A DNA stretch of 64,000 bases from an uncultured virus (IMG/VR IMGVR_UViG_3300025890_001884). Lineage: Duplodnaviria; Heunggongvirae; Uroviricota; Caudoviricetes. The notes under the pieces are model-generated. The model had not been told where the DNA came from. It worked only from the letters and a program-made list of their open reading frames with translations, and did not search any database. Location: the IMG/VR virus record IMGVR_UViG_3300025890_001884. One strand, given 5' to 3'. Position 1 is the stretch's first letter. Each line of letters starts with the position of its first letter. Shown here piece after piece: positions 2 to 51,533 of this stretch. The position numbers and the translations under genes are program-made.

Positions 2-241
2 CTGAAGACAAGACAAGCTGGAGTAGTTACTCGACTCTTGGACGTTGAATGGAATGTCGGGAAGTCAGGTGCTGTTTCACCAGTCGCAATCTTAGAGCCC
101 TGTGTGATTGGAGAAGCAACTATTTCTAGAGCAACTCTGCATAATATAGCTTATATAGATGCACTGGGGTTAGAAATAGGTTGTGATGTAGAAGTAATTA
201 GAAGTGGAGAAATAATCCCGAGAATAGTAAAAAGAGTATGA
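2..241 (+). CDS. ligA: NAD-dependent DNA ligase subunit A, C-terminal part (OB-fold); 5'-truncated by the window edge
   Basis: Frame is open from position 2. VEWNVGKSGAVSPVAILEP...ATLHN...VIRSGEIIP is the LigA OB-fold signature. It stops before the Zn-finger/HhH/BRCT domains, as in the split T5 ligase. Confidence 0.9.
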   Translation: MKTRQAGVVTRLLDVEWNVGKSGAVSPVAILEPCVIGEATISRATLHNIAYIDALGLEIGCDVEVIRSGEIIPRIVKRV

Positions 242-33354: not shown

Positions 33355-33977
33355 TGGGACGAGTAATATTAGTAGGAAATTCAGTAGAATTACTTCAACA
33401 CGAGTATGGCTCATATATTGACAGTTTTGACACAATTGTTAGATTCGGAAAAGGCATACCTACAGATGAAAATTTTGAACAGATAGGTAAAAAAACTGAT
33501 GTATGGATTACAGGTTTCTTAAGGCAGAAGCATTATACTAGGTTTAAAAATGTTAAAATATTATTTAATCGCTGTAGAATACACATGAACATAGAGCCAA
33601 AGTCTCCTATGCTACTTCCAGAGTATGAAGTTATGTTCACAGATAAAGAAATACTAGAAATATTTGATTTAGTAGGAGCTACTAATGATAAGGCATTAGG
33701 TGACCGTCCTTCTGCAGGTTTTCTTGGTATATTGTATTTTTTAAATAAGTGTGAATATGAGAGTATAGAAATCATAGGATTTGATTTTTTCTCTAAAAAG
33801 TTGCCTTTCTCTACAGGAGCAGACTATCCCGCTAGTTGGCATTTGCCAGTTAATAGTAAGGAGAGGAGTCCTCACAATCCAAATGAAAAACAAATAGTAA
33901 AAGAGTTAGCCGATAGAGGCAAAATTAAATGGAAAGTTCTTTCAGATTTGAAAGATGAGTTTCTAGATTTTTCCTAG
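33351..33977 (+). CDS. GT29 sialyltransferase-like protein
   Basis: ILVGNS...YGSYIDSFDTIVRF...GKKTD (sialylmotif L-like), PSAG...GFDF (motif S-like), H...E. Confidence 0.65.
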   Translation: MMGRVILVGNSVELLQHEYGSYIDSFDTIVRFGKGIPTDENFEQIGKKTDVWITGFLRQKHYTRFKNVKILFNRCRIHMNIEPKSPMLLPEYEVMFTDKEILEIFDLVGATNDKALGDRPSAGFLGILYFLNKCEYESIEIIGFDFFSKKLPFSTGADYPASWHLPVNSKERSPHNPNEKQIVKELADRGKIKWKVLSDLKDEFLDFS

Positions 33978-34913
33978 TCTAAATCCTACTTTTACTAGTG
34001 ACCCAGCTACGCGTTTCTGCTTAGTTGATTTTAACATCAAAAGCTCATTATTTCGTGCATTTCGCATATTTATAGGTATACTAGGAATTAAGTTGGTATA
34101 CATATCCCAAGGAAGCGAGAGCTGTATAGTTGTAGGTAACATTGTATAAGTTTTAAGTAACCACTTATGCTGTATATTTAATTGAAAACATTTTCTTAGC
34201 ATTACATTATAATTAACACTATCAAGTGGTCCAAGAGCCTCTAGTTCTACTAAAATATCATTTTTACCATTCATGTATAGTGGCATAAATTTATGTTGAT
34301 AACCTAATAATCTTGTCATAAACCATTCTGTACTTGCTTGGTAAAGAAGTCTATCAATCTTAGGCATATTAGGAGATCTTGATTCTAAGCCATCTTTTTC
34401 TGTAGGACAGAATAATTCTTCTAGTGAAAAAGTTTTTAACATGTCATAGTTAAATATCATAAACTCTGGATCAATATTATGTAGTTTAGTTGGTGAAATA
34501 GGTATTTGTAAAATTCTGTAAAAGTCTTTGAATCTTGGATGTTTTCTAAAGACTCTTTTATGAGATAAGAAAGAAACAGACCCCGCAAAGAATTCTTCAT
34601 TAGGAAAATTATTAGACCATTTACCGTTTATTATATTGTTGCCACCTAGCCAAACTATTCTTTTATGTAGTCCACCTTTATCTTTCCAATGATCTAGTAA
34701 GTGACACATACATTTGGCTAAGTCTGACTTTCTCCAAAAAGATTCATATATTTTAACATTTGGAAAGTTATCTACTATCCATTCAATCGGAGCTTCATCC
34801 CAATCTTTATTATTTACATATAGATGTATTCTAACTTCTTCTTTATCGGGCAGGAGTGATGCTAAAGTAAACATACTCCATACTTTTTTATAGGGGTGTA
34901 CTATTTCAATCAT
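33963..34913 (-). CDS. GT8-like fold protein, DxD apparently lost
   Basis: TLASLL...IHLYV...RIVWLGGNNII...FMIFNYD layout resembles GT8, with GGN at the DxD position. Confidence 0.35.
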   Translation of the reverse strand: MIEIVHPYKKVWSMFTLASLLPDKEEVRIHLYVNNKDWDEAPIEWIVDNFPNVKIYESFWRKSDLAKCMCHLLDHWKDKGGLHKRIVWLGGNNIINGKWSNNFPNEEFFAGSVSFLSHKRVFRKHPRFKDFYRILQIPISPTKLHNIDPEFMIFNYDMLKTFSLEELFCPTEKDGLESRSPNMPKIDRLLYQASTEWFMTRLLGYQHKFMPLYMNGKNDILVELEALGPLDSVNYNVMLRKCFQLNIQHKWLLKTYTMLPTTIQLSLPWDMYTNLIPSIPINMRNARNNELLMLKSTKQKRVAGSLVKVGFRLGKI

Positions 34914-35814
34914 TTTTTATCTTTTTAAATTCCCAAAAGTTATCTACATATGCCTGTAGTCTTTCTTCCGCATCTTCATCAAATTCAAATATTACTCCAG
35001 AGTTTCTTGCTGAGAGTATTTTACAAAGTGCAAGGTACGATTGTCTGTTTGATACTGTATCATAAAAACTTTCGTAAGTTAATAAATTTTTCTCTCGTGC
35101 TTCTTTAGGAAAGCTAACAAGAGAAAGTCTTTTTCTGAGAAGGAGTGCAATTAATCCCATCTCACTATTTGGAGCAGTCGCTACTTCTTTACAATTAAGT
35201 AGTAGTTCATACCCACCTTCTTTTTTGTTTAGTACATTTTCTGCACCAAATCTTCTTTTTAAATCGGCAATATAAACATGAGCAGTAATTGGATGAGGTT
35301 TTATTACATATCCTTCATCTACTAATTTCTTTACTCGTCTATAATCAATTACAGTTCCTTTACATAATAAATTACTACCTGGTAAGAAAATTACTTTATC
35401 ATAAAATTCTGTATTCCATTGTAAATTATATTTATTCTGTAGTCCATTTACTATTTTTTCGATTCTTTCTTCATCAATCTTTATGTCTGAATTAGCAATC
35501 GCTTTAAATAATTTGGTGTTAATTTTTATAGAATTAACTCTACAGTATATTCCTTTACCTAAAAAATCTGTATATAACCATTTTCTAATACTATGTAGTT
35601 CATTAGTATTAAACCATAAATCATATTCCCAGGCAACTCCTTCACTAGTGTCAAGAACAAGTTTCTCTTTTAATTTAGCTAATCCATCTAAGTCATCTTT
35701 AGGTCTTGTACAAGAGCCTGACTTCATGAAGTGAGTTGGTATATCTCCCAATGACTCATTTATAGTCATTGCTACCAGTTTATTTTTCTTAACTGGCTTC
35801 TGCTTTGTTCTCAT
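34906..35814 (-). CDS. KpsS/KpsC-like (capsule synthesis) glycosyltransferase-like protein
   Basis: VIKPHP...LLLNCKEVATAPNSEMGLIALL resembles the KxHP...V.T.NS..G.EAL motifs. Confidence 0.55.
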   Translation of the reverse strand: MRTKQKPVKKNKLVAMTINESLGDIPTHFMKSGSCTRPKDDLDGLAKLKEKLVLDTSEGVAWEYDLWFNTNELHSIRKWLYTDFLGKGIYCRVNSIKINTKLFKAIANSDIKIDEERIEKIVNGLQNKYNLQWNTEFYDKVIFLPGSNLLCKGTVIDYRRVKKLVDEGYVIKPHPITAHVYIADLKRRFGAENVLNKKEGGYELLLNCKEVATAPNSEMGLIALLLRKRLSLVSFPKEAREKNLLTYESFYDTVSNRQSYLALCKILSARNSGVIFEFDEDAEERLQAYVDNFWEFKKIKND

Positions 35815-35957: not shown

Positions 35958-38690
35958 TTAAGAATCGCTCCATTGTGAGCCATCCCAATAAGATAATCCA
36001 AAGTCTGCTAGACTCGCAACTTCGGTATCAAAAATTGTACCTGCTTGGGAGGCGGTTATTCTTTCAAATACTGTTGTTGTCGTATCGAAAGTTGTTGTTG
36101 TTAAGTGGTCAGTTGTTCTGTTTGTTTCTGTTGCTCTAGTTGTGGAGATAGTAGTTGTTGTTGTTCTATCTGTTCCAAAAGTAGTAGTCCTAGTTGTTTC
36201 AAAAGTGGTTGTAGTTCCAAATGTAGTTGTTCTACTTGTTTGAGTAGATTGACTTGTTTCAAAAGTACTTGTTGTTGTTCTGCTTGAACCAGTTGTTCTA
36301 CTAGAGGCTGTGCTTCTATCTGTATCAAATGCTGTTGTTGTTTCTCTGCTTGAAGCTGTTGATCTAGTTGTAACTGTTCCCTGTGAAGTCTCAAACGTTG
36401 TGGTTGTAGCTCTACTTGAAGCTGTTGACCTAGCTGTATTAAATGTTGTTGTTGTAGAGTGAGATGTTCCAGTAGTTCTAGAAGATGCTCTCGAAGTAAT
36501 ATAAGCAGTTTCGTAAGCTGTAGATTGACTAGTGTTTGTACTTCTACTTGTGTTTGTAGTTTGTGTAGTATTCGTACCTCTTGCAGTATTCGTACTTCTT
36601 GCAGTAATATATGAACTAATAGTAGCGAATGTTGTATTATCAATATATGCTGTACTAGTAGCAAATGTAGTTGCTGTATTTGTAGCCTGAGTAGTATTAG
36701 TACTTCTACTTGTGTTTGTAGCTTGAGTAGTATTCGTACTTCTGCTTGTTCCAAATGATGTATTATTTGTAAACGCTGTATTATTTGTAAAGCCAGTACT
36801 TCTACTTGTGTTTGTGGCTTGAGAAGTATTTGTACTTCTACTTGTACCAAATGCTGTATTATCAATATAGGCTGTTACTGTATTAGTATTTCTAGCTGTA
36901 TTTGTAGCCTGAGTAGTATTAGTACTTCTTGATGTGTTTGTAGCTTGAGTAGTATTCGTACTTCTACTCGTACCAAACGCTGTATTATCAATATACGCTG
37001 TAGTTCTAGAAGTGTTTGTATTTCTACTCGTACCAAACGCTGTATTATCAATATACGCTGTTATTCTACTAGTATTAGTATTTCTAGAGGTATTATTTGT
37101 AAATCCTGTACCTCTAGAAGTATTAGTATTTCTAGAGGTATTATTTGTAAATCCTGTGCTATTTGTAAATCCTGTAGCTCTACTTGTATTATTTGTAAAT
37201 CCTGTAGAGTTTGTAAAGCCAGTACTTCTTGAACCTGCTGTATTGTTTGTAAAGCCAGTTGACCTTGATGTATTATTAGATGCAGTATAGAATTGTGTTC
37301 CACCTTCTGGGTCAAAGTTATAATCAATGTATACAGTTATGTAAATAGTAGTTCTAGAAGTGTTTGTTGAAACGGCAATTGCTGTGTTTCTGGAAGTGTT
37401 CGTATTTCTAGCAGTGTTGGTTGCAAAAGCGGTGTTTCTAGCAGTATTAGTATTTCTAGCTGTATTTGTAGCAAAACTTGTAGAGTTTGTAAACGCTGTA
37501 TTTCTTGCAGTATTTGTAGCAAAACTTGTAGAGTTAGTAAATCCTGTACTTCTACTTGTATTTGTTGCCTGCGTAGTATTATACGCAGTAGAGTTTGTAA
37601 AAGCGGTGTTTCTACTTGTGTTTGTTGCTTGTGTAGTAGTATAAGCTGTTATAGTAGCAAATGTTGTATTGTCAATATAAGCTGTTGTAGTAGCAAATGT
37701 TGTGTTATCAATATATGCTGTTGACGTATTAGTATTTCTAGAAGTATTGGTTGCCTGCGTAGTAGTATAAGCTGTTATAGTAGCAAATGTTGTATTGTCA
37801 ATATATGCAGTATCTCTAGCTGTGTTAGTACTTCTTGCTGTATTTGTTGATTGTGTAGTAGCATACGCTGTTATAGTAGCAAATGATGTATTATCAATAT
37901 ATGCTGTTGTTGTTGCAAATGTAGTAGTAGTACCAGTTGTTTGTGTTGTGTTCGTGCTTCTAGACGTATTTGTTGCTTGTGTAGTATTTGTGCTTACTGT
38001 TGTTCCAACTGCTGTATTATCAGTATATGCTGTCGATGTAATAAATGTTGTTGTATCTTCGTAAGCAGTTGTTGTTGCAAAAGATGTGTTTCTGCTAGTA
38101 CCTATTGTTGTATCAAAAGATGTTATGTATGCAGTTGTAGTATTAAATGCTGTAGTTGTACTTTTACTTGTATTAAATGTTGTAGTTGTAGTAAAGGCCG
38201 TTGTAGTCGACTGCGAAGTATTAAATGTTGTTGTTGTATTAAATGTCGTAGTTGTAGTATACGCTGTCGTCGTACCTTGTGAAGTTGTAAAAGTAGTTGT
38301 AGTTGTAAACGCTGTAGTTGTATTAAAAGCAGTTGTAGTACTGGTTGTTGTATTGAATACTGTTGTTGTTGCAAATGTAGTTGTTCTACTTGTGTCTGTT
38401 GTTCTGCTAGTGTCGAAAGTTGTACTTCTACTTGTATCAAAAGTTGTTGTAGTATTGTAGTCGGTATCAAAAGTAGTAGTCGTATTGAATACTGTATTTT
38501 GTACACCTGATATAGTACTAGTAGTTGTAGCAGTCTGTCTTGTAGTCGAGTGCGTAGCAGTAAACGGCCCAGCTAAAGTTCCGCCATCATTGACGTAAAC
38601 TTCGTTGACACGACGAATTGTTCCACTGTCGTTGACAGCGATAAATCGAACAGTCCGTAGTGTGCCGGAATCGTTTACAAATATTGCCAT
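35958..38690 (-). CDS. 910-aa Thr/Asn/Ser-rich repeat fibre protein with mirror-complementary halves
   Basis: N-terminal 3x VND(S/G)GT domain, about 830 aa of 4/6-residue Thr-started units, and a unique central TVYIDYNFDPEGGTQFY. Confidence 0.85.
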   Translation of the reverse strand: MAIFVNDSGTLRTVRFIAVNDSGTIRRVNEVYVNDGGTLAGPFTATHSTTRQTATTTSTISGVQNTVFNTTTTFDTDYNTTTTFDTSRSTTFDTSRTTDTSRTTTFATTTVFNTTTSTTTAFNTTTAFTTTTTFTTSQGTTTAYTTTTTFNTTTTFNTSQSTTTAFTTTTTFNTSKSTTTAFNTTTAYITSFDTTIGTSRNTSFATTTAYEDTTTFITSTAYTDNTAVGTTVSTNTTQATNTSRSTNTTQTTGTTTTFATTTAYIDNTSFATITAYATTQSTNTARSTNTARDTAYIDNTTFATITAYTTTQATNTSRNTNTSTAYIDNTTFATTTAYIDNTTFATITAYTTTQATNTSRNTAFTNSTAYNTTQATNTSRSTGFTNSTSFATNTARNTAFTNSTSFATNTARNTNTARNTAFATNTARNTNTSRNTAIAVSTNTSRTTIYITVYIDYNFDPEGGTQFYTASNNTSRSTGFTNNTAGSRSTGFTNSTGFTNNTSRATGFTNSTGFTNNTSRNTNTSRGTGFTNNTSRNTNTSRITAYIDNTAFGTSRNTNTSRTTAYIDNTAFGTSRSTNTTQATNTSRSTNTTQATNTARNTNTVTAYIDNTAFGTSRSTNTSQATNTSRSTGFTNNTAFTNNTSFGTSRSTNTTQATNTSRSTNTTQATNTATTFATSTAYIDNTTFATISSYITARSTNTARGTNTTQTTNTSRSTNTSQSTAYETAYITSRASSRTTGTSHSTTTTFNTARSTASSRATTTTFETSQGTVTTRSTASSRETTTAFDTDRSTASSRTTGSSRTTTSTFETSQSTQTSRTTTFGTTTTFETTRTTTFGTDRTTTTTISTTRATETNRTTDHLTTTTFDTTTTVFERITASQAGTIFDTEVASLADFGLSYWDGSQWSDS
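36070..38555 (-). repeat. Coding array of 12- and 18-nt units, symmetric in protein about 37310
   Basis: Units TNTSRS, TNTTQA, TAYIDN, TGFTNN, TTFATI, TSRS, TAFG. Near-identical DNA copies, e.g. 36962-37000 vs 37022-37060. Confidence 0.9.
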
Positions 38691-38693
38691 GTC

Positions 38694-38918
38694 TTAACTC
38701 GAGTATACGAAAAAGATGTGGCCGCTTGACGTACTTCCTACTCCTGTTGGAGCAGTCGTAGTAATTGTGTGCGGTAATCTAGCTGAAGGCACTGTGCCTG
38801 ATGTAATCTTGGCTGCTGCGATACCTGCACCTTGAAAGTTTGCGCTGGAATCTACGGCTTGAACACCATCAATTTTTATTCCTGCGTCTTCGATATTAAA
38901 ATCTAATTTTTGTCCCAT
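38694..38918 (-). CDS. Small virion/fibre-associated protein
   Basis: IAAAKITSGTVPSARLP fibre-type motif. Tightly coupled to its neighbours. Confidence 0.55.
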   Translation of the reverse strand: MGQKLDFNIEDAGIKIDGVQAVDSSANFQGAGIAAAKITSGTVPSARLPHTITTTAPTGVGSTSSGHIFFVYSS

Positions 38919-38919
38919 T

Positions 38920-41900
38920 TTATACCTCTATTGTTGTTCTTATATATTTATAAGCCATTGTATCACCACTTGCTGGTGTTACTCTTAATCTTACATTACC
39001 ACTACTTATATCTGCATCAAATGTTGCTTGTGCACCATTATCAAATATAGAAGCGTACTGCGTTAAATAAACTGTTGTTCCGTCATGGAAAAGTGTTATT
39101 TCTAGTGATTGATAATCACTGTCTGTTGAATTTGTTATCTGTACTAAATATTTAGCAGTTCTAAATGTAGCTGCTGTAAAACTATCTAGTGTAAATACTG
39201 TTGTTGCTGTAGAGCTTCCTGTGCCTACATCCATACCAGCTACTTCATCTATGTGAAGTTTTTGTGGTGGTGCTGAATCTTGGATACCTAAGTTACCATT
39301 TACATTTGTTGTATCGGCACCATCTCCAAGTGTAACTGCTCCAGAGAATGTAATATTCCCTGTCATGTTTTTACCGCCAAGTGCTGCACTTGATAATTGT
39401 GTAGTTGTTACAGAGTTATTTGCAATCTCACTTGACCCAACAGCGTTTGCTGCTATTTTAGCTGCTGTTATTGCATTAGCATTTATTTTTGCAGTCGTTA
39501 CTTGTAAAGCTCCTAAATGAATTGTATCTATTGATCCAGTCTTTAATTCTGCGCTGTCTACTGCATTGGCTGCTATCTCTGCTGAGCCTACTGCGTCAGT
39601 AGCTATTAAGTCTGCGGTAATTAATCCTGAGGATATCATACCTACATTGTTAATTGCATTGTCTGCCATCTTAGCTGCTGTTACTGAATCAGCGGCAAGA
39701 TGTATTGTATCAATACTACCACTTACTAATTCTGATGAATCTACCGAGTTAGCCGCTAATTCTGAAGAACCTATTGCTCCTACAGTAATTGATTCTGCTG
39801 TTACTGAATTACTTGCTATCTTAGCTGCTGTAACAGCATTATCAGCTATCTTAGCTGTTGTTACATTAGCATTTGCAATATGTGCTGTATCAATACTGCC
39901 GTCTACATAATGTTCTGAATTTATAGAATCATCTGCAATTTTTGTTCCATCTATTGCGTCATCTGCAATATTACCAGTAGCAATAGTATTAGCTGCTATA
40001 TCTCCTGATACAATAGTTCCATTAGATATTAAGTCTGATGTAATTAAACCGCTTGATATAAATGCTACACTATTAATAGCGTTATCACCTATTTTAGCTG
40101 ATGTTACTGCATCACTTGCTAGTTGAGCTGCTCCTACTTGTCCATCATCAATATGTTTTGTTAAGATACTGTTCTGAGCTATCTTAGTTCCATCTACCGC
40201 GTTATCTGCTATGTTGGATGTTGCTATTGTGTTGGCTGCTATTTCAGCTGTTGTAACACTTCCTGCTATAATCTTACTTGCATTAACAGTATTGTTTGCT
40301 ATTGCAGAAGCTGTTCCTGTTAAGTTACCTGTTACGTTTCCTTCTATGTCTGCTACTAGTACACCTTTTGTATAACCTGTTCCACTTGTGTTTACTGTTG
40401 TGGTTGGCTGTACTTGTAAATCTTTGAATATTTGCCACTTACCAGAGTTATCTGCGTTTCTAAATATACCTGAGTATTTGTCTGTACCACTAGTATCATA
40501 TAATCCATAGAAACCTATATCAACTGCATCTGAACTTCCGTTGCCAGTTGCCATTGAGATAAGAGAATCTCCAGTTGTAATTGTTGTAGCTGAAGCTGCG
40601 AATGAGGTTCCTGATACTGTCACGTTTCCTGAGAAAGTAACATTACCTGACATTGTCTGTCCACTCAACGCATCTGATTTAAGTTCTGCTACTGATACAG
40701 CATTTGCTGCTATCTGGGTAGTTCCTACTGCATTTCCAGCTATTTCTACTGCGGAGACTGAATTTACTGCGAGTTTTGCATTTGTTACTTGGTCATCTCC
40801 AATATGTATTGTGTCTATTGAGCCTGATACTAGTTCTGCTGTATCTACTGAGTTTGCACCTAATTGAGTGCTAGTGATACTCCCGTCAGCAATCTTAGCC
40901 GCAGTAACTGCATTATCTGCTATCTTTGCTGTGGTTACATTAGCATTTAATATTTTTGCTGTTATAACTGAGTCAGAAGCTAGGTGTATGGCATCTATAG
41001 AGCCACTTACTAGTTCTGCTGTATCTACAGAGTTTGCAGCAAGTTGATCTGCTGTAATCTGTGCATCGTCTATGTGTCTTGTTAAAATACTATTAGAAGC
41101 AATCTTTGTACCGTCTACTGCGTTGTCTGCTATGTTACCTGTTGCTATAGTATTATCTGCTATATCTCCTGATACAATAGTACCATCTGCGATATGGTCT
41201 GAAGCAATTACTCCAGAAGGTAGCTTAGCTGCTGTAATAGCATTATCTGCTATTTTACCAGTTGTTACATTACTATTAGCTATTTTAGCTGTTGTAACTT
41301 GTGAAGCTCCTATATGTATAGTATCTATACTACCTGTTATTAGTTCTGCACTATCTACAGAGTTAGCCGCTAATAAATCTGCGGTAACAGTACCAGCTGG
41401 TATTTGAGTAGCCGTGACCGAGTTATTTGCTATTTCACTACTTCCTACTGAATTTACTGCAATTTTTGCACTTGTTACTGAGTTAGCGGCTAGTTTAGCT
41501 GCTGTTACTTGTAAAGCCCCTAAATGTATTGTATCTATTGAACCTGTTTTTAATTCTGATGAATCTACTGCATTTGCTGATATTTCTGCGTTTGCTATAG
41601 CGTTAGCAGCTACGTGTCTTGCTACTATTGAATCTGTTGCTATTTCAGCTCCTGTTACATTGTTTGCAGCTATCTTAGATGTTATTACTTGTGCAGTAGC
41701 AATGTGAGAAGAGTCTATACTTCCGTCTATTAGCTGAAGACTATCAACTGAATTAGTTGCTAGTGCAGCTGTGTCTATTGAGTTATCTGCAACTCCTGTT
41801 ACTGCTGACTGCTGTAGTTGAGCTGCTGCAATAGCATTAGTTGATATTTCACTAGTTCCTACTGCATTTGCTGCTATTTCACTACTTCCTACTGCGTTTG

Positions 41901-42006
41901 CTGCTATTTCACTTGCTGTAATTGAATTACTTACTATTTCAGTAGTACCTACTGCATTCGCCTCAAGTGAGGAGACTAATGCATTACTTTTTCCTATGAG
42001 TGACAT
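38920..42006 (-). CDS. Tail-fibre-like protein with 5/10-residue repeats
   Basis: Two long arrays of (A/D)N(A/S)V(T/G)xAKIA-type repeats flanking a non-repeat central domain, plus a C-terminal globular domain. Confidence 0.75.
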   Translation of the reverse strand: MSLIGKSNALVSSLEANAVGTTEIVSNSITASEIAANAVGSSEIAANAVGTSEISTNAIAAAQLQQSAVTGVADNSIDTAALATNSVDSLQLIDGSIDSSHIATAQVITSKIAANNVTGAEIATDSIVARHVAANAIANAEISANAVDSSELKTGSIDTIHLGALQVTAAKLAANSVTSAKIAVNSVGSSEIANNSVTATQIPAGTVTADLLAANSVDSAELITGSIDTIHIGASQVTTAKIANSNVTTGKIADNAITAAKLPSGVIASDHIADGTIVSGDIADNTIATGNIADNAVDGTKIASNSILTRHIDDAQITADQLAANSVDTAELVSGSIDAIHLASDSVITAKILNANVTTAKIADNAVTAAKIADGSITSTQLGANSVDTAELVSGSIDTIHIGDDQVTNAKLAVNSVSAVEIAGNAVGTTQIAANAVSVAELKSDALSGQTMSGNVTFSGNVTVSGTSFAASATTITTGDSLISMATGNGSSDAVDIGFYGLYDTSGTDKYSGIFRNADNSGKWQIFKDLQVQPTTTVNTSGTGYTKGVLVADIEGNVTGNLTGTASAIANNTVNASKIIAGSVTTAEIAANTIATSNIADNAVDGTKIAQNSILTKHIDDGQVGAAQLASDAVTSAKIGDNAINSVAFISSGLITSDLISNGTIVSGDIAANTIATGNIADDAIDGTKIADDSINSEHYVDGSIDTAHIANANVTTAKIADNAVTAAKIASNSVTAESITVGAIGSSELAANSVDSSELVSGSIDTIHLAADSVTAAKMADNAINNVGMISSGLITADLIATDAVGSAEIAANAVDSAELKTGSIDTIHLGALQVTTAKINANAITAAKIAANAVGSSEIANNSVTTTQLSSAALGGKNMTGNITFSGAVTLGDGADTTNVNGNLGIQDSAPPQKLHIDEVAGMDVGTGSSTATTVFTLDSFTAATFRTAKYLVQITNSTDSDYQSLEITLFHDGTTVYLTQYASIFDNGAQATFDADISSGNVRLRVTPASGDTMAYKYIRTTIEV

Positions 42007-45323: not shown

Positions 45324-48300
45324 CTATTGTGTATTATCTACATCTATATATATTGCTTGATATGTGCTGTTGAATATAGAGCCACTATTATTCCACTTAA
45401 CTCTCCAATATACAGTTTCTTGTGACGAACTCATTCCACTGAGAGTTCCTTGCCAAACAAACACATAGCTTCTAAATGTACCTGCATCAGCGTTCATTGC
45501 AGGACTTAAAGCAGTCCAAGTAGTTCCATTGAAACTATATTGTATAGTTCCATTTCTTACATCACCTAATACAGCACTGTATATAACTTGATAACCTGCA
45601 CCATTTCTAACATTGTTTAATGTAGTATTCATATAAACAGCTTCAGTGCTATTAACAGTAGAGCCAGGATATAGTCCATTCCATTGGTTATTTTCGGCTG
45701 TTACTCTAAGAGGTACAGTTCCTCCCGTTTGGTTAATAATGTCAGCACTTGCATTGGCAAAATGTTTGACATTCAAAGTATCTACATCAATTTTTTCTGA
45801 ACGAATAGCAGATATCTGTGCTGCTCCTACAGCATTCGCTGCTATGGTTAAAGTAGTAATCTGATTTGCTGCAATAGTAGCTGTAGTAATTTGATTCGCC
45901 GCTATCTTAGCCGTGTTAATAGCATTAGCTGCTATTTCTGACTCTCCAACATTACCTGCTCTTATTTTTGCTGATGTGATAGCATTAGCTGCTATTTGTG
46001 CATTACTAATTGTTCCTGATAATTTACCTGTACCGACTGCTGTAATCATAGCGTCATCTACACTGCCTGACTTTATTTCTGCTGAATCAATAGCATTAGC
46101 AGCAATCATGGCATTAGTAATATCTCCATTACCTACACTAATTTTTGCAAAAGCAATATCTCCTGTACCAATAGCTATTTTTGCTATGTCTATAGAACCT
46201 GTACCAATAGCTATTTTTGCTATATCAATATCTCCAGTTCCGATAGCTATTTTTGCTATATCAATATCTCCAGTTCCGATAGCTATTTTTGCTATGTCTA
46301 TGGAGCCTGTTCCGATACTTATTTTTGCTATACCAATATCTCCTGTGCCAATAGCTATTTTTGCTATGTCTATAGAGCCTGTTCCGATACTTATTTTTGC
46401 TATGTCTATAGCTCCAGTCGCGCTTATTTCTGCGTTTGTTATACTGTTTGCTACAATTTTTGCTGCTGTGATTGAGTTAGCTGCAACATGGTCGCCGTTT
46501 ACAGAATCATTTTGAATGACAAGACTAGTTACAGAGTTAATTGCTATTTGATTATTATTAATAGAGTTTGCTGCAATAACAATTGCATTTACTGAGTTTG
46601 CTTTTAATTGGTTTGACTCAATAGCATTTGCAGCTATAACAACTGCATTTACAGAATTTGCTGCTATCTCTGAATTACCTATTGCATTTGCTTGAATTAT
46701 AGCTGCTGTTACTGAATTTGATTTTAGCTGTGCATTTTCTATAGAGTTAGCAGCTATACTATCTACGTTGATAGCATTACTGGCTACACTTGCATTTACT
46801 ATGGCATTGGCAGCTACCCCTACTGTTGTTATAGCATTTCCTGCTACCTGGTCAGTATCAACTGCTCCATTTTGAATTATTATTCCATTTACAGAGTTGA
46901 TTGCGATTTCGCTACTTCCTACTGAATTTCCTAATAATATAGTTCCGTTTACTGAGTTAGCAGCTATTGAAGCTGAAGTAACTGAGTTTGCAGATATCTC
47001 TGCATTATTAATTGTGTTTGCCCCTATTTGAATACTTCCTACAGAGTTAGAAGCTAGTTCTACTCCTGTAATACTATTTGCTGTAACTGTAAAAGCACCT
47101 ACTGCGTCTGATGTAAGTTGGGCGGCTGTAATACTATTAGCTGTTATTGCTACTGTTCCGATTGAATTTGCTGATATCTCTGAACTACCAATAGCATTAG
47201 CTGTTATAGCTATACCGCCGATTGAATTTGCTGCTATCTCTGAGCTACCAATAGCATTAGCTGCTATAGCTATACCACCTATTGAATTAGCGGCTATTTC
47301 TGAAGTGCCTATAGCATTTGCAGTTATTGCTGCACTGCCGATTGAGTTTGCTGATATATGGGAAGAATCTATTTCTCCTGCTATTATATTTGCAGCCCCT
47401 ATTGAATTTGCAGATATATGAGACTCATCTATAGCATCTGCTACAATAGCTGCAGCATTTATTGAGTTAGCTGATATTTGTACTCCTGTAATAGAATTTC
47501 CAGATATCTGTACACTTCCAATGGCGTTTGCTCCAACTTCCTCATCATTGTCTATTTTTACTTTATTTGTGAATGAAGTAATAGCAAAGGTTCCAGCATT
47601 ATTAGCTACTTCTGCAAGTATCGCATCTGAAGAAGAATCTATTCTTAATGCTTGTCTAAATATATTTTTACCAGAGTATGCTCTTGAAGGTGCAGAACTT
47701 ATGTTCATACTTGTATTACTTTCTATATAAGATACTGTAGAATAGAATCTTGTTGCTCCTGCAACATCTACTATAACTACATCTCCTGCTCTAAAATCTG
47801 TTGTGAACGCTGTACTCGTTCCTGTTATTGTACTAGACCCAGCTGTTAAAGTTATTGTTCCAGTTGCTTGTACTATATCATTGTTTGACTCTCCGAGTCT
47901 TTTCATAAATGTATATAGTATTTTATTACCATTAACATCTGCAGCATCTTCATCTGTGTGTAAATGTATTGCTTGTAATGGGTCTGATCTAGTATTTCCT
48001 CTGTCTAAGGCTCCATCATAGTCAAATAATAGATAACCAGTTTCTCCATTTGCTAAGTTGTTAAAACCTGCCTGTGTGGTAAAGTTAGTATTTGCACTTG
48101 CAAAGGCTAATCCATCTGCTCCATTTAATGGTTGGTACGAGTATGTGTTATTTGAAAAAGTTATAGTACCATTTGAAGTATTGATATTTTGAGTAGCAGT
48201 TAATAAACCACCTCTTACAATACTACCATTTAATCCTGCTGGTATAGTATCCGCAGAAAAAGGTGCTAGACTAGAGACATCGAAGTCTACTTTTGTTTGT

Positions 48301-51300
48301 ATGTAAGAAGATGTTTGTCCACTTGTATTTCTTGTTTGAACTCTTAGTATATATTCATCTCCAACTACTACATTTCGTATAGTATAGGAAACTTGTTTGT
48401 CTACATCTATTTTTACAAATTCATCGTGATTTGGGTCGTGGGCTTCAGTCTGTGCATTATGTTGTATTCTATATCCTGCTAAGTGTTCGTATACATCAGT
48501 TAAACTATTACCATCACTATCTGTTCTAGTAGAAGTAGGATGAGTCCAAGATAATAAAATATCATAACCAGATACTCCTGCATCTAATGTTACATTGTCT
48601 CCACCACTAGGTACTATAGCCGCTGTTAGATTTTGAGGTACTGGTACTTCTTCTGTTCTTTTTGGTTTTCTTAATTCTGCTGGAAGTTCTGGTATTTCAT
48701 ATCCTCTATCTACTGCATTAAACTTTTCAATATTATACTCTGCAGCATTAATATTATAAGTCATCTCTCCACTATTTTCTTTTATTGAAGTAACAACATA
48801 CTGTTTTATATTTCCAGTTACATCTACACCTTTATCTGTTTCTCCAGATATAGCATAGATAACTTCTCCATTTGGTACAGAACTAAATGCACTTGATACA
48901 GTTATTGAAGTTGAATTAAAAGAACTTACTGTTTGTTTTTCTATTCTAACATCTTCTGACCAGTGTAGTTGTACTAAAGCGCCTGCGTCATCTTTAACAT
49001 TTCTTGCTTTATATTGGTCATCTATATCTCCACCAGCTTCATCAACTAATACTAAGTCTCCTTCTCTATAAACTACAGAATTAATTGTTGCTGTTTCTTG
49101 TGTTAAATATGCACCGCCACTAGGATATATTAAGTGTAGTTCATAATTATTATTTGAATCTAAAGTACTTGATAAGTCTCTATCTGTTTTTATTACTGTA
49201 GTAGTTGAGCTTGAAGATGTAGTAACTCTACCGCTTAATTGTGTGCCTGAATCATCTGCATCCTGAATATTAATAACATCTCCAGGTCTAAGAACTGCTC
49301 CAGCATTAATTCCTGTTGCAAAAGTTACAACTTCTCTTTCTAATCTTTCTGTAAATAAATGCCACTTACCATATCTATGTGCTTGTCCTTGTGATGTACA
49401 ACCAAATGCTGTAACTGTTTTTCTAGTTATTCTTCCTGATTTTTGTATTTCATCTATGTCTTCTACAACTTCTGTTGCTTGTTTATAACTATCTTCTGGG
49501 TCATTCCATCCTACTCTTACTTGATTGTGTTTAAGTCTTCCTGCTGTACCGGAGTAAGCAAACTCGCCATCTACAACATTTCCTTTTGTGAATGTGTAAA
49601 CAGCTCCTTTTTGAATATTAGAGCCTAAAGTGACTTCTCCATTATACCAGATAAGCATACTTCTAATAACTGTTGCAAATTGTTTTAAAGTTTTTAGTGC
49701 GTCTTGATTCTTTGCTATATAAGTGTTGCAAGTAAATCTTGGTTCACTTCCCCCTTTGCCATCTGGTACTAATTCATCACAGTATTTTGCAATTTGATAC
49801 ATAGTCCATTTGTCAATTTGTGAAAAAGTACCTTCAGGATCTAAATAGTTTCCTAATCCGTATCTTGGATTAGTAAGCATGTCCATAAATATCCATACTG
49901 GATTATCAGTAAATACTGGTTCGTAGTTTGCTTGGTCTGCTGTTTGTGTTAAATTGTTAAATTCTAGTTTGTCTCCTCTAAAATTACCATCCCAATCTAC
50001 ATATGCTCCTGTATCAGCTCCTGTAGTAACATTTCTTGTATAAGTTGCAACAGATCGTCTAACACCTGCTGCAGTATACTCAAATCTTGGGAAATAGTTA
50101 GTAGGTACTTTTACCTTCATTCCAAATATCTCATATCCTCTTTGTGGAATCTGAGTGAAGTCTTCTGCATCTACTACAACTCCTGCATATGCAGTATAAG
50201 GATATCTTAGCTTATCTGTAATAATATTTTCTATAGATTTTAATTGTGAACTATTAGTTTGTTGCCATGAATTTTCTTTTTGATTTATTGGTGAAAGTCT
50301 TTGAATTTTTATTCTGTAGGCATCATAAGGTTGGAATTCTTCTGTATTAATGAGGTAAGTATAACTAAACGCTTCTTTTGATTTGTCTGTTATAATTCCT
50401 GATTGAGAATCTTTAGTTCTAGTATTTTTATGATAGCTAGTTGTTGATGTTGCAATAGTTGGTCTGCCTACTACTAAGGCGTCTGTATAGGTACTGCCTC
50501 CGTCTCTTGAATAACCAAAATATATTCTATGTTCTGCAAAGCCAGGTCCTAATTTACCATTTTCTTTTTGTGAAATTAATCCTTGTGGAAACGCCATATT
50601 AAGTTTTACGGCATCTACTTCCCCAGGATTACCAACATTCATTTGTGCTGAAGTCTTGATTACTTCATTTGCGGTAGCATTGGTTGTTGGTTGGTCTAAT
50701 CCAAAAGTACTATTTGTTGGATAACCAGTGCCTTGTACTTGATCTAAAGAAGCATTAATATTAGCAGCTGAAGAGGCACTTCCTATTCCTGCCGGAGTAG
50801 GTAAGTATGGCTGGTCTCTTTCTCCTGTTCTGAAAGCAAATCCAAAATTATTATAATTATATTGAGGAGTTTCATTTGATTCTTTTATTGGACTGGATAG
50901 TATAGCAATAGTATTTGCTGTATCAATACCTCCACCAACTGTTAAAGTTGCTCTATTGTTATCAGCATCATAACTTGCTACTTTGTCTACTAAGTCTAAA
51001 TATAAACTTGTATTTGATTTTGTTTGTGCAGGTGCTAAGTCTACTCTTACTGCAGATGTATTTATAAATTCTGTAATTTTTGTAGCGAGCTGTGTTCCAT
51101 TTGGTCCAGCTCCGTCTATTCTTAAATAGGCGGGAACTATGTGAGCTGTAGCATCATAAACATCTGAACTTGCAAATGTCATAATAGAAGTATCAGTTCT
51201 AATAATATTATTTCCTGCTATAGTGTCGCCTGCATTAATACCTTTTTTAGCTGCTCCTATTATTTGAATTTCTCTTGTGCCATCTGTAGTTAAAGAGTAT

Positions 51301-51533
51301 TCAAAAATAGAAGGACTGTTATTGTCTACTACTATCTTAGTACTAGCGGTATATCCTGAATCTACTGACCTTTGTGGTGAAAAAGTGTTATTATTAGTTT
51401 CTCCTATTACAGGATTTTTATCGAGTCTTATACTTGCTGCTCCATTGACTAATCCTTCTATCGGGCCTTCTGATAGTGCATCATATATTATGGCTGTTTG
51501 AGCTGTTGATTTTCCTCTAGTTACGTATGCCAT
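45324..51533 (-). CDS. Central tail tip protein (lambda gpJ/TipJ-like) with repeat shaft
   Basis: LSEGPIEGL, YPYTAY, DNPVWI, YCDELVPDGKGGSEPRF, FGCTSQGQAHR, FnIII-like region, then about 600 aa of repeats. Confidence 0.88.
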   Translation of the reverse strand: MAYVTRGKSTAQTAIIYDALSEGPIEGLVNGAASIRLDKNPVIGETNNNTFSPQRSVDSGYTASTKIVVDNNSPSIFEYSLTTDGTREIQIIGAAKKGINAGDTIAGNNIIRTDTSIMTFASSDVYDATAHIVPAYLRIDGAGPNGTQLATKITEFINTSAVRVDLAPAQTKSNTSLYLDLVDKVASYDADNNRATLTVGGGIDTANTIAILSSPIKESNETPQYNYNNFGFAFRTGERDQPYLPTPAGIGSASSAANINASLDQVQGTGYPTNSTFGLDQPTTNATANEVIKTSAQMNVGNPGEVDAVKLNMAFPQGLISQKENGKLGPGFAEHRIYFGYSRDGGSTYTDALVVGRPTIATSTTSYHKNTRTKDSQSGIITDKSKEAFSYTYLINTEEFQPYDAYRIKIQRLSPINQKENSWQQTNSSQLKSIENIITDKLRYPYTAYAGVVVDAEDFTQIPQRGYEIFGMKVKVPTNYFPRFEYTAAGVRRSVATYTRNVTTGADTGAYVDWDGNFRGDKLEFNNLTQTADQANYEPVFTDNPVWIFMDMLTNPRYGLGNYLDPEGTFSQIDKWTMYQIAKYCDELVPDGKGGSEPRFTCNTYIAKNQDALKTLKQFATVIRSMLIWYNGEVTLGSNIQKGAVYTFTKGNVVDGEFAYSGTAGRLKHNQVRVGWNDPEDSYKQATEVVEDIDEIQKSGRITRKTVTAFGCTSQGQAHRYGKWHLFTERLEREVVTFATGINAGAVLRPGDVINIQDADDSGTQLSGRVTTSSSSTTTVIKTDRDLSSTLDSNNNYELHLIYPSGGAYLTQETATINSVVYREGDLVLVDEAGGDIDDQYKARNVKDDAGALVQLHWSEDVRIEKQTVSSFNSTSITVSSAFSSVPNGEVIYAISGETDKGVDVTGNIKQYVVTSIKENSGEMTYNINAAEYNIEKFNAVDRGYEIPELPAELRKPKRTEEVPVPQNLTAAIVPSGGDNVTLDAGVSGYDILLSWTHPTSTRTDSDGNSLTDVYEHLAGYRIQHNAQTEAHDPNHDEFVKIDVDKQVSYTIRNVVVGDEYILRVQTRNTSGQTSSYIQTKVDFDVSSLAPFSADTIPAGLNGSIVRGGLLTATQNINTSNGTITFSNNTYSYQPLNGADGLAFASANTNFTTQAGFNNLANGETGYLLFDYDGALDRGNTRSDPLQAIHLHTDEDAADVNGNKILYTFMKRLGESNNDIVQATGTITLTAGSSTITGTSTAFTTDFRAGDVVIVDVAGATRFYSTVSYIESNTSMNISSAPSRAYSGKNIFRQALRIDSSSDAILAEVANNAGTFAITSFTNKVKIDNDEEVGANAIGSVQISGNSITGVQISANSINAAAIVADAIDESHISANSIGAANIIAGEIDSSHISANSIGSAAITANAIGTSEIAANSIGGIAIAANAIGSSEIAANSIGGIAITANAIGSSEISANSIGTVAITANSITAAQLTSDAVGAFTVTANSITGVELASNSVGSIQIGANTINNAEISANSVTSASIAANSVNGTILLGNSVGSSEIAINSVNGIIIQNGAVDTDQVAGNAITTVGVAANAIVNASVASNAINVDSIAANSIENAQLKSNSVTAAIIQANAIGNSEIAANSVNAVVIAANAIESNQLKANSVNAIVIAANSINNNQIAINSVTSLVIQNDSVNGDHVAANSITAAKIVANSITNAEISATGAIDIAKISIGTGSIDIAKIAIGTGDIGIAKISIGTGSIDIAKIAIGTGDIDIAKIAIGTGDIDIAKIAIGTGSIDIAKIAIGTGDIAFAKISVGNGDITNAMIAANAIDSAEIKSGSVDDAMITAVGTGKLSGTISNAQIAANAITSAKIRAGNVGESEIAANAINTAKIAANQITTATIAANQITTLTIAANAVGAAQISAIRSEKIDVDTLNVKHFANASADIINQTGGTVPLRVTAENNQWNGLYPGSTVNSTEAVYMNTTLNNVRNGAGYQVIYSAVLGDVRNGTIQYSFNGTTWTALSPAMNADAGTFRSYVFVWQGTLSGMSSSQETVYWRVKWNNSGSIFNSTYQAIYIDVDNTQ

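What the first reader, a model, noticed from the sequence alone, without database searches (positions are those of the whole stretch)
35958..38690. A 'reverse-complement' protein: 910-aa fibre whose halves pair unit-for-unit around a central loop (candidate giant beta-hairpin)
Seen in sequence: the only non-repeat internal segment, TVYIDYNFDPEGGTQFY (DPEG = residues 460-463), sits at the midpoint of the repeat region, with about 1.22 kb on each side. Parsing into Thr-started 4- and 6-residue units and reading outward on both sides gives matched lengths and complementary residues (N-arm/C-arm): TIYI/TSRS, TNTSRT/TGFTNN, TAIAVS/TAGSRS, TNTSRN/TGFTNS, TNTARN/TGFTNN, TAFA/TSRA, TNTARN/TGFTNS, TNTARN/TGFTNN, TSFA/TSRN, TAFTNS/TNTSRG, TNTARN/TGFTNN, TSFA/TSRN, TGFTNS/TNTSRI, TNTSRS/TAYIDN, TTQA/TAFG, TAYN/TSRN, TAFTNS/TNTSRT, TNTSRN/TAYIDN, TTQA/TAFG, TAYT/TSRS, TTFATI/TNTTQA, TAYIDN/TNTSRS, TTFATT/TNTTQA, TAYIDN/TNTARN, TNTS/TNTV, and so on. 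I followed more than 55 consecutive pairs by hand with no loss of register. Phe/Tyr almost always faces Arg/Gln (occasionally Lys/His), whichever arm carries it. The DNA is not an inverted repeat, so the symmetry must be selected at protein level. Inference: one antiparallel beta-ribbon zipped by cross-strand aromatic-Arg/Gln pairs, about 130 nm long at about 0.33 nm per residue. Both termini would sit together at a virion-anchored base, with the aromatic/acidic loop at the tip. I know of no described phage fibre with this kind of pairing code.
Basis: partly seen in the sequence, partly recalled or inferred. Interest (0 to 1): 0.96.

Follow-up and report, generated by a model that had tools for sequence, protein, structure and literature searches.

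The report
Giant fold-back beta-hairpin phage fibre
A 910-residue threonine-rich tail-fibre protein of an uncultured marine T5-like phage has two halves that match residue for residue in reverse order (aromatic opposite arginine or glutamine), which points to one chain folded back into a very long, thin beta ribbon of a kind not described for any fibre.

Summary
In the 910-aa ORF (35958-38690, minus strand), residues i and 926-i give 67 aromatic/Arg-Gln-Lys-His pairs with no gap. The next best register gives 38, and the maximum over 300 unit shuffles is 20. All aromatic and basic residues of the arms lie on one face of a period-2 pattern. The DNA holds no matching inverted or mirror repeat.

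All 46 complete relatives analysed (668-1621 aa) keep the centre at (L+15..18)/2. Close relatives differ by mirror-image indels, for example 12, 32, 18, 4, -10 | -10, 4, 18, 32, 12. Sequence identity falls symmetrically from both termini towards the centre.

Best reading (about 0.75): the chain folds back at a variable central turn into an antiparallel beta ribbon. The conserved N- and C-terminal domains sit together at the virion end and the variable tip sits distally.

The 3-D structure, the length (about 130 nm, inferred) and the oligomeric state are not shown; AlphaFold2 gave no confident model of the arms.

The gene closes a siphovirus tail-fibre module. I found no description of such a fibre in print.

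This scan found the same family earlier on other genomes, with the same reading.

The parts
35958..38690 (-). Whole gene: 910 codons plus stop. Thr-rich fold-back fibre protein.
   Evidence: ORF list and translation. Intact homologues were found in 68 complete loci, giving 47 unique proteins.
38562..38690 (-). N-terminal anchor domain, residues 1-43. Three tandem 14-15-residue beta-hairpin repeats of the form (h-h-V-N-D-x-G-T-h-R).
   Evidence: Mean column identity is 80% across 26 sequences (A2). It matches phrog_13729 positions 6-51 at E=1e-7. AlphaFold2 gives pLDDT 85.6 with six strands forming three hairpins. The same module heads 205 other proteins in a 1.84-billion-protein library.
37338..38561 (-). 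N-arm, residues 44-451. Thr-x period-2 repeats made of irregularly ordered 4- and 6-residue units.
   Evidence: Pairs gaplessly with the C-arm at i+j=926. The strict pairing code runs from about residue 70.
37272..37337 (-). Central tip, residues 452-473. Non-repeat, aromatic and acidic, with the DPEGG turn at residues 460-464; the centre of symmetry is residue 463.
   Evidence: The segment is hypervariable among otherwise 93-100% identical relatives. A turn-type motif (DPExG, GPEG, SGG, GGG and the like) lies at or near the centre in most relatives; it is absent or offset in L026, L062, L067, L068, L069 and L011.
36072..37271 (-). C-arm, residues 474-873. Thr-x period-2 repeats complementary to the N-arm in reverse order.
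   Evidence: Mirror-image indels against the N-arm in L030, L047, L050 and others.
35961..36071 (-). C-terminal domain, residues 874-910, carrying the conserved ER.TA...GT.FDTEV...S.WDG..W motif.
   Evidence: Mean column identity is 74% across 30 sequences (A3). No PHROG, Pfam or PDB match.
38694..38918 (-). Conserved 74-aa gene immediately upstream. Candidate adaptor between the 1028-aa fibre and this protein (inferred).
   Evidence: Present directly upstream in 45 of 47 loci; the other two loci begin too late to show it. No family match.
38920..42006 (-). 1028-aa tail-fibre protein upstream.
   Evidence: phrog_892 tail fiber protein, E=1.8e-100. Found in 44 of 47 loci.
33963..35814 (-). Two conserved downstream genes (302 aa at 34906-35814 and 316 aa at 33963-34913). 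Candidate fibre chaperones by position only.
   Evidence: Both are found downstream in 47 of 47 loci. The only match is phrog_26179, of unknown function. No Pfam, NCBIfam or PDB match.

Best explanation
The protein is the distal fibre of a marine T5-like siphovirus. One chain runs out about 400 residues as a beta strand and reverses at a short, variable aromatic/acidic turn (residues 452-473). It then runs back antiparallel, so that residue i lies opposite residue 926-i.

One face of the ribbon carries Thr-Thr pairs interrupted every 4 or 6 residues by one large pair: Phe or Tyr opposite Arg, or Phe opposite Gln. This fixes the register. The other face carries only small residues (Thr, Ser, Ala, Asn, Gly, some Ile) and could pack against other ribbons.

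The conserved triple-hairpin N-domain and the conserved C-domain end up together at the virion-proximal end. The N-domain is a modular anchor shared with many other phage proteins. The hypervariable turn is the distal tip and the likely receptor contact.

Fibre length is tuned in evolution by indels that must occur as mirror pairs in both arms.

Shown: the mirror complementarity, its conservation, the mirror indels, the mirror conservation gradient, the gene context and the N-domain's fold prediction and modularity.

Inferred: beta conformation (from the period-2 pattern), intramolecular pairing, a length of about 130 nm (0.33 nm per residue), the tip's function and the oligomeric state (unknown; a monomer or a trimer of hairpins are both open).
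For: - Pairing: 67 pairs at one gapless register against 38 for the next best, and at most 46 in any shuffle.
- One-face code: aromatic-RQ 65 against 12.2 expected, T-aromatic 1 against 38.6 expected, and no aromatic-aromatic or RQ-RQ pair.
- Partner specificity: Phe-Arg 29, Tyr-Arg 18, Phe-Gln 17, Tyr-Gln 0, Fisher p=0.0015. Across 21 family members the counts are F-R 637, R-Y 570, F-Q 483 and Q-Y 19; these sequences are related, so the counts are not independent.
- No DNA-level symmetry.
- Family: 46 of 46 complete unique homologues (668-1621 aa) have the best register at L+15..18, with up to 130 pairs for 151 aromatics.
- Gapped alignment pairs 70-94% of the possible partners in all 46. It exceeds every shuffle in 7 of 7 weak members tested, using 8 or 10 shuffles each.
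- Mirror indels: window against L030 gives +10, +4 | +4, +10 at -102, -72 | +70, +99 from the centre. Against L047 it gives -12, +16 | +16, -12. Against L050 it gives 12, 32, 18, 4, -10 | -10, 4, 18, 32, 12. After an ordinary BLOSUM alignment, 391 of 396 window pairs map onto residues that are again partners in L030.
- Identity to close relatives is 93-100% at both termini and 44-76% at the centre, symmetric on both arms.
- Turn-type motifs with Pro/Gly lie at or near the centre in most relatives.
- All tandem-repeat periods in the DNA are multiples of 6 nt, that is an even number of residues, which keeps the two faces in phase.
- Context: the gene is the last fibre gene of a lambda/T5-like tail module. 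The major tail protein is about 31% identical to those of T5-like phages. Gene order is conserved in the related loci.
- N-domain: phrog_13729 at E=1e-7; AlphaFold2 pLDDT 85.6; fused elsewhere to Gly-rich, Ig-like and propeller domains.
Against: - No structural confirmation. AlphaFold2 on the central 201 aa with a 19-row, gappy alignment gave pLDDT 36.8 and almost no secondary structure.
- Nothing here separates pairing within a chain from pairing between antiparallel chains, except the turn-like, variable centre and the polarity argument.
- About half of the 46 relatives pair only 45-60% of their aromatics without gaps. They need 1-residue bulges or larger gaps. Gapped alignment has a high background: shuffles reach roughly 40-75% of the observed count.
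- A free two-stranded ribbon over 100 nm long has no known precedent and leaves edge hydrogen bonds unsatisfied.
- Nothing shows that the protein is in virions.
Confidence: 0.75

Rival explanations
1. The pairing is between chains. Two extended chains (or chains of neighbouring fibres) lie antiparallel, with residue i of one opposite residue 926-i of the other, and there is no fold-back. The centre of the sequence would sit on a two-fold axis.
For: An antiparallel homodimer predicts the same i+j=constant signal, the same L+16 rule and the same mirror indels. No structural result excludes it.
Against: - The centre is a non-repeat segment that, in most relatives, holds Pro/Gly turn motifs and varies in length. 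That is expected for a turn and not for a strand crossing a dyad.
- A two-fold fibre would have identical ends. Yet the N-domain is a modular virion anchor, and variability peaks in the middle of the sequence. That pattern fits a distal tip.
- Phage fibres sit on three-fold sites (established knowledge), which an antiparallel dimer does not match.
Confidence: 0.1
2. It is a trimeric six-stranded needle of the T4 gp37 type, greatly lengthened. Three hairpins associate around a three-fold axis through their small-residue faces. The aromatic/Arg face is then the outer surface, not the sole source of stability. This is a sub-case of the fold-back reading with a defined oligomer.
For: - gp37's collar domain D10 is built from residues 811-881 plus 1010-1026, so that chain goes out to the tip and comes back (passage of PMC6957217).
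- The second face here holds only small residues, which would suit a narrow core.
- Phage fibres are as a rule trimers (established knowledge).
Against: - There is no sequence relation to any solved chain.
- Only 3 His occur in 910 residues, so there is no row of iron-binding His sites as in gp37.
- The N-domain holds three internal repeats in one chain and is predicted as a compact monomeric fold. That would also suit a single chain docking on a three-fold site.
- The oligomeric state was not testable here.
Confidence: 0.35
3. The mirror pattern is a by-product of low-complexity tandem repeats in a disordered, perhaps glycosylated, Thr-rich linker, with no specific pairing.
For: The arms are built from local tandem repeats. 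AlphaFold2 returned an unstructured, low-confidence model.
Against: - Shuffles that keep units, composition and period never exceed 46 pairs against 67 observed.
- Side registers at plus or minus 6 and plus or minus 38 reach only 25-38 pairs.
- Mirror-image indels and the constant L+16 centre over a 2.4-fold range of lengths cannot come from repeats alone.
- T-aromatic pairs are depleted about 38-fold.
Confidence: 0.02

Closest known systems
Needle (domains D10-D11) of the phage T4 long-tail-fibre tip protein gp37
   Same: Both are distal phage fibre parts in which the chain runs out to the tip and returns, so that N-side and C-side segments lie together at the base. In gp37, D10 is built from residues 811-881 plus 1010-1026 (passage of PMC6957217). 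In both, the receptor-binding tip sits at the turn.
   Different: gp37's out-and-back part covers about 200 residues and is held by seven iron ions bound by His (same paper). Here each arm has about 400 residues (300-760 in the family), His is nearly absent (3 of 910), and the register is kept by an aromatic/Arg-Gln pair code. There is no sequence similarity. The trimeric state is not shown here.
Antiparallel coiled-coil arms of SMC/Rad50-type proteins (recalled; not tested here)
   Same: One chain folds back so that a long N-side arm pairs with a long C-side arm. The arm lengths must co-vary, and the terminal domains meet at one end.
   Different: Those arms are alpha-helical heptad coiled coils in ATPases. 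Here the pattern has period 2 (beta), there is no heptad and no ATPase, and the setting is a phage fibre. This is an analogy of architecture only.
Cross-strand pairs in small beta-hairpins and single-layer beta-sheets (tryptophan-zipper peptides, OspA; recalled)
   Same: Antiparallel strands are stabilised without a hydrophobic core by side-chain pairs across the strands, including aromatic-cation pairs and Thr-Thr pairs.
   Different: Those are 12 to 20-residue hairpins or a few strands. Here about 390 consecutive cross-strand positions appear to be used in one hairpin, with a binary code that is conserved and co-evolves.
RNA stem with compensatory changes (analogy)
   Same: Two halves of one polymer are complementary in reverse order. 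Changes and indels on one side are matched on the other, and the loop is variable.
   Different: The complementarity is between amino-acid side chains, not bases. The DNA and RNA are not self-complementary.
phrog_13729 N-terminal module (phage proteins of unknown function)
   Same: Residues 4-49 match profile positions 6-51 at E=1e-7. The triple V-N-D-x-G-T-x-R repeat is the same.
   Different: Other members are mostly 150-250 aa, with globular, Gly-rich, Ig-like or propeller distal parts. None of the 12 that I read has mirror-paired Thr-rich arms.

Membership tests
T4 gp37-type needle | The chain goes out to the tip and returns, so that N-side and C-side segments pair | tested here: met
   Met by covariation only: a gapless register at i+j=926, the L+16 rule and mirror indels. 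There is no 3-D confirmation.
T4 gp37-type needle | A row of His residues binding iron along the needle axis | tested here: not met
   Only 3 His in 910 residues, none of them in the repeat code.
T4 gp37-type needle | Sequence relation to gp37 or to any solved fibre | tested here: not met
   phmmer against all PDB chains gave 0 hits at E of 1 or less. The N- and C-domain profiles gave nothing meaningful.
T4 gp37-type needle | Homotrimer | not testable with these tools
   No oligomer prediction of the arms was obtained.
Beta-solenoid or triple beta-helix fibres | Direct repeats of constant period, so that residue i stacks on residue i+P | tested here: not met
   The best parallel offset gives 41 pairs against 67 antiparallel. 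DNA repeat periods vary from 18 to 222 nt. The irregular order of 4- and 6-residue units on one arm is mirrored on the other.
phrog_13729 (N-terminal module) | Profile match over the triple-repeat N-terminus | tested here: met
   E=1e-7, residues 4-49 on profile positions 6-51. The whole protein gave no hit.
T5 L-shaped fibre pb1 type | C-terminal intramolecular chaperone (peptidase S74) domain | tested here: not met
   No Pfam family at E of 0.01 or less and no PHROG for the whole protein. The family name is recalled.
Phage tail fibre (functional class) | Encoded within the tail-fibre module of a tailed phage, with conserved synteny | tested here: met
   The gene lies downstream of the tape-measure, J-like, fibre-assembly and phrog_892 fibre genes. 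The order is conserved in 44-47 of 47 loci.
Phage tail fibre (functional class) | Presence in the virion and binding to a host receptor | not testable with these tools
   The phage is uncultured, and no proteomic or EM data were available.

The most novel reading that the evidence does not exclude
A single polypeptide forms a free-standing, two-stranded beta ribbon more than 100 nm long with no hydrophobic core. A simple side-chain code keeps it in register: aromatic opposite Arg/Gln, Thr opposite Thr, and small residues on the other face. It docks as a monomer on a three-fold fibre end through a pseudo-three-fold triple-hairpin N-domain. Its length evolves by mirror-paired indels. This would be the protein counterpart of a nucleic-acid stem-loop, and the code is simple enough to copy in design.
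Probability: 0.35. Interest if true: 0.95.

Novelty: categorically new. Interest (0 to 1): 0.88.

Why it matters
If the fold-back ribbon is real, it adds a new class to the short list of fibrous protein folds. That list currently holds coiled coil, collagen, triple beta-helix, beta-spiral and the gp37 needle.

It would also show a residue-level pairing code in a natural protein that behaves in evolution like base pairing, with matched indels on both arms and occasional two-sided changes at a pair.

It gives a directly testable system. Natural variants from 668 to 1621 residues should give fibres whose length scales with arm length.

It offers a simple rule set for designing long, thin, register-defined beta-ribbon materials.

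For phage biology, it places the receptor-binding tip in the middle of the gene. That changes how host-range regions should be sought in this widespread group of marine T5-like phages. It also identifies a modular N-terminal anchor shared by hundreds of phage proteins.

Tried and rejected
- **Word-indexed protein search** with the whole protein: 7999 candidates scored, none at E of 0.001 or less. This is probably the composition filter and is uninformative.
- **tblastn of the whole protein** against 50,697 GenBank phage records: no match, with the low-complexity filter on. Megablast of the 9-kb fibre region: no match.
- **Own assembly**: not held, so not searched.
- **AlphaFold2 on residues 363-563** with a 19-row alignment: pLDDT 36.8, no fold. 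I do not read this as disorder.
- **Complex prediction**, N-terminal 75 aa against C-terminal 61 aa, each with its own alignment: no verdict (score 0.00, mark 0.32). It counts neither for nor against.
- **Protein Atlas**: only unnamed viral clusters and no structure.
- **PDB fold searches with the N-domain model**: Foldseek's best hit was E=1.5 (banana lectin, probability 0.23), and VIA-align gave no Z of 2 or more. No fold assignment follows. BFVD gave only N-termini of uncharacterised phage proteins (TMq up to 0.77, E of 0.014 or worse).
- **DNA or RNA self-complementarity** as the source of the symmetry: rejected.
- **Beta-solenoid**: rejected.
- **A second, inter-chain register** at i+j = 926 plus or minus 6: cannot be separated from the lag-6 autocorrelation of the arms, so I dropped it.
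- **Profile search with the N-domain**: did not return the full-length Thr-rich relatives. The best hits were 57-102-aa fragments, so the family test rests on the 78 IMG/VR loci only.
- **Rows dropped from the family counts.** Of the 78 loci, L049 had no Thr-rich ORF of 250 aa or more. Nine ORFs were cut by a locus end (L005, L008, L010, L017, L018, L025, L028, L036, L059). L071/L072 were left out of the from-Met counts because the first Met is internal; stop-to-stop they still give the best register at L+18, with 49 pairs against 31.
- **Literature**: seven full-text searches found no description of such a fibre. I read passages of PMC6957217 and PMC5537660 only; for all other papers I saw listings only.
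Full report
**What is there.** The minus-strand ORF 35958..38690 encodes a 910-residue protein with 37% Thr and almost no Lys, His, Pro, Leu or Met.

It has five parts:
- a 43-residue N-terminal domain made of three tandem V-N-D-x-G-T-x-R hairpin repeats;
- a Thr-x period-2 arm (residues 44-451);
- a non-repeat aromatic/acidic segment with a DPEGG turn (residues 452-473);
- a second Thr-x arm (residues 474-873);
- a 37-residue C-terminal domain.

**Checking the observation.** I counted, for every constant C, the positions where an aromatic residue at i faces Arg, Gln, Lys or His at C-i.
- C=926 gives 67 pairs out of 86 aromatic and 82 RQKH residues.
- The runners-up are 920 (38) and 932 (35); the rest of the top-25 list gives 19-27.
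- The alignment of the two arms in reverse order is gapless from about residue 70 to 856.

Shuffles that keep composition and periodicity never come close:

| Shuffle | Result |
|---|---|
| Thr-started units | mean 15.6, max 20 of 300 |
| Dipeptides | max 27 |
| C-arm units only | max 23 |
| C-arm blocks of 6-48 residues | max 26-46 |

The best parallel offset gives 41.

Within residues 70-455 against 471-856 (386 pairs), every aromatic and all but one Arg/Gln/Lys/His (a single Gln) lie on one of the two alternating faces. On that face I count:
- 65 aromatic-RQ pairs (12.2 expected);
- 92 Thr-Thr pairs (58.8 expected);
- 1 Thr-aromatic pair (38.6 expected);
- no aromatic-aromatic or RQ-RQ pair.

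The other face holds only Thr, Ser, Ala, Asn, Gly, Ile, Asp, Glu, Val and that one Gln.

Arg takes Phe or Tyr, but Gln takes only Phe. The counts are F-R 29, Y-R 18, F-Q 17 and Y-Q 0, with Fisher p=0.0015. Across 21 family members the counts are F-Q 483 and Y-Q 19, but those sequences are related.

The DNA is not self-complementary or mirror-symmetric at the corresponding diagonal. It has only four short local inverted repeats.

**Relatives.** A scan of IMG/VR returned 78 loci.
- One (L049) had no Thr-rich ORF of 250 aa or more.
- Nine ORFs were cut by a locus end.
- The remaining 68 loci give 47 unique proteins.

For 46 of 46 proteins analysed from the start Met (668 to 1621 residues), the best register is L+15 to L+18, with up to 130 pairs for 151 aromatics. 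L071/L072, whose first Met is internal, give L+18 when read stop to stop.

So the two arms stay equal in length over a 2.4-fold range. Landmark measurements agree: the distance from the end of the N-domain to the turn, and from the turn to the DTEV motif, differ by at most 9 residues in the 16 proteins with a single DPE-type turn.

About half of the relatives pair only 45-60% of their aromatics without gaps. With a gapped alignment all 46 reach 70-94%. One subfamily shows single-residue bulges about every 21 residues in one arm.

Gapped alignment has a high background. Even so, the observed count exceeded all 8 or 10 unit shuffles in 7 of 7 weak members tested. Examples are L034 (114 against 54-65) and L073 (82 against 53-61).

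**Mirror indels and mirror conservation.** I made ordinary BLOSUM62 global alignments of the window protein with close relatives. These show indels of equal size at equal distance on either side of the centre:

| Relative | N-arm indels | C-arm indels |
|---|---|---|
| L030 | +10, +4 (at -102, -72) | +4, +10 (at +70, +99) |
| L047 | -12, +16 | +16, -12 |
| L050 | 12, 32, 18, 4, -10 | -10, 4, 18, 32, 12 |

After such an alignment, window pairs map onto residues that are again partners in the relative:
- L030: 391 of 396;
- L031: 365 of 377;
- L050: 340 of 379.

Identity to close relatives is 93-100% in both terminal domains. It falls symmetrically along both arms to 44-76% at the centre. The turn region differs even between proteins whose termini are identical.

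All tandem-repeat periods in the DNA (18 to 222 nt) are multiples of 6 nt. Local duplications therefore add an even number of residues and keep the two faces in phase.

**Context.** The gene is the last fibre gene of a tail module on the minus strand. The order is:
- major head protein, adaptor, terminator and major tail protein;
- chaperone, 1370-aa tape measure and minor tail proteins;
- a 2069-aa J-like protein and fibre-assembly proteins;
- a 518-aa protein and a 110-aa protein;
- a 1028-aa tail fibre (phrog_892) and a 74-aa protein;
- then this gene.

The major tail protein is about 31% identical to those of T5-like phages.

In the related loci the 74-aa gene lies directly upstream in 45 of 47. 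The 1028-aa fibre is present in 44 of 47. Two genes of 302 and 316 aa follow downstream in 47 of 47.

By position, the 74-aa protein could be an adaptor and the two downstream proteins could be chaperones. This is inference only, by analogy with the T4 and lambda fibre operons (recalled).

**The terminal domains.** Both are strongly conserved, with 80% and 74% mean column identity.

A profile of the N-terminus found 205 proteins at E of 0.001 or less in 1.84 billion. Most are 150-250 aa and carry the same triple repeat at their N-terminus, followed by unrelated distal parts. Those distal parts include Gly-rich, Ig-like (just below the curated cut-off) and propeller-like domains.

The module is phrog_13729, of unknown function. 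Residues 4-49 of the window protein match it at E=1e-7.

AlphaFold2 with a 96-row alignment predicts three beta-hairpins at pLDDT 85.6. No solved fold matches. In BFVD it superposes on the N-termini of uncharacterised phage proteins, with TMq up to 0.77 and E of 0.014 or worse.

A conserved N-terminal module fused to varied distal parts is the usual design of phage receptor-binding proteins (established knowledge). This supports the N-terminus as the attachment end.

**How it most likely works.** The period-2 pattern, the single gapless antiparallel register and the mirror indels fit two antiparallel beta strands in contact along their whole length.

Three points favour pairing within one chain:
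- the turn-like, length-variable, non-repeat centre;
- two conserved termini that would meet at one end;
- variability that peaks in the middle of the sequence, as expected for a distal tip.

At 0.33 nm per residue (the standard beta rise), the arms of about 400 residues give about 130 nm. The family would span roughly 100 to 250 nm. This is inferred.

The large pairs would set the register and cover each aromatic ring with a guanidinium or amide. The small-residue face could pack against other ribbons. I cannot tell a monomer from a trimer of hairpins.

**What did not work.** AlphaFold2 on the central 201 residues gave pLDDT 36.8 and no fold. I read this as a failure of the method on a shallow, gappy alignment of a low-complexity sequence, not as evidence of disorder. 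It does mean that no 3-D evidence exists.

**Comparison with what is known.** The nearest precedent is the needle of T4 gp37. Its collar domain is made of residues 811-881 plus 1010-1026, so the chain goes out and back, and its stem holds seven iron ions bound by His (passages of PMC6957217).

The window protein shares the out-and-back logic. It fails the other defining features that I could test:
- no sequence relation to any solved chain;
- nearly no His.

Its arms are also several times longer.

Hairpin arms described in T4 gp34 are 2-4 nm long (passages of PMC5537660). Beta-solenoid and triple beta-helix fibres need constant-period direct repeats, which are absent here. SMC-type antiparallel coiled coils are an architectural analogy only (recalled).

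Seven full-text searches found no description of a fibre with such a pairing code. Pfam, NCBIfam, PHROGs (for the whole protein) and the PDB gave nothing.

**Earlier notes of this scan.** Four earlier findings on other genomes describe relatives of 1022 to 1483 residues. They reach the same reading and name the same closest known structure. I saw them after forming my reading and do not count them as independent evidence.

New here, as far as their summaries show:
- the one-face rule;
- the Gln-Phe and Arg-Tyr partner specificity;
- the mirror conservation gradient;
- the shuffle control for gapped alignment;
- the conserved flanking genes;
- the identification and confident fold prediction of the N-terminal module.

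**Verdict.** I rate it as a new architecture of fibrous protein, with interest 0.88. My confidence in the fold-back beta ribbon is about 0.75, and the oligomeric state is open.

Noticed in passing
window 38694-38918 (-): A 74-aa gene lies a few bases upstream of the fibre gene and is conserved at that spot in 45 of 47 related loci (57-100% identity). Its first half, as I read it, resembles the repeats of the 1028-aa fibre. It has no family match. It may be an adaptor between the two fibre proteins.
   Followed up: partly
window 33963-35814 (-): Two genes of 302 and 316 aa follow the fibre gene in 47 of 47 related loci. The only match is phrog_26179 (unknown function) for the 302-aa protein; Pfam, NCBIfam and the PDB give nothing. 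By position they are candidates for fibre chaperones or modifying enzymes.
   Followed up: partly
proteins P0011-P0150; window 38562-38690: The triple V-N-D-x-G-T-x-R N-terminal module heads 205 proteins in the representative library. Most are 150-250 aa. Their distal parts vary: Gly_rich_2 (P0064, P0119), Big_2-like (P0031, below cut-off) and an SGL/lactonase-like propeller (P0139). It looks like a widespread, undescribed phage anchor domain.
   Followed up: partly
protein P0095 (397 aa): This protein has a related N-terminal module followed by Thr/Ser-rich period-2 repeats. The repeats are interrupted by a roughly 180-residue non-repeat segment that gives a weak intein-splicing match (PF14890, E=6.6e-5, below the cut-off). 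It may be a fibre gene carrying an intein-like insert.
   Followed up: no
loci L034, L037, L032, L027, L048, L051, L076: In one subfamily the best gapped pairing needs single-residue bulges in the N-arm about every 19-25 residues, five or six in a row. These may be regular beta-bulges that change the twist of the ribbon.
   Followed up: no
loci L068 and L069: These two near-identical proteins differ by 30 residues (1161 and 1191 aa). The shorter one pairs well only if 30 residues next to the turn are looped out on one arm. It may be a recent one-sided deletion that has not yet been matched on the other arm.
   Followed up: no
window 33950-33990: All long ORFs from 238 to 33977 are on the + strand, and the structural genes from 33963 onward are on the - strand. 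The two blocks converge and overlap by 15 bases, and the GC and AT skews change sign there.
   Followed up: no
window 38920-42006 and 45324-51533 (-): The 1028-aa fibre and the C-terminal third of the 2069-aa J-like protein share repeat families (phrog_892, phrog_13518, phrog_26466, phrog_32822). In the related loci, tblastn with the J-like protein also hits the fibre gene at 28-39% identity.
   Followed up: no
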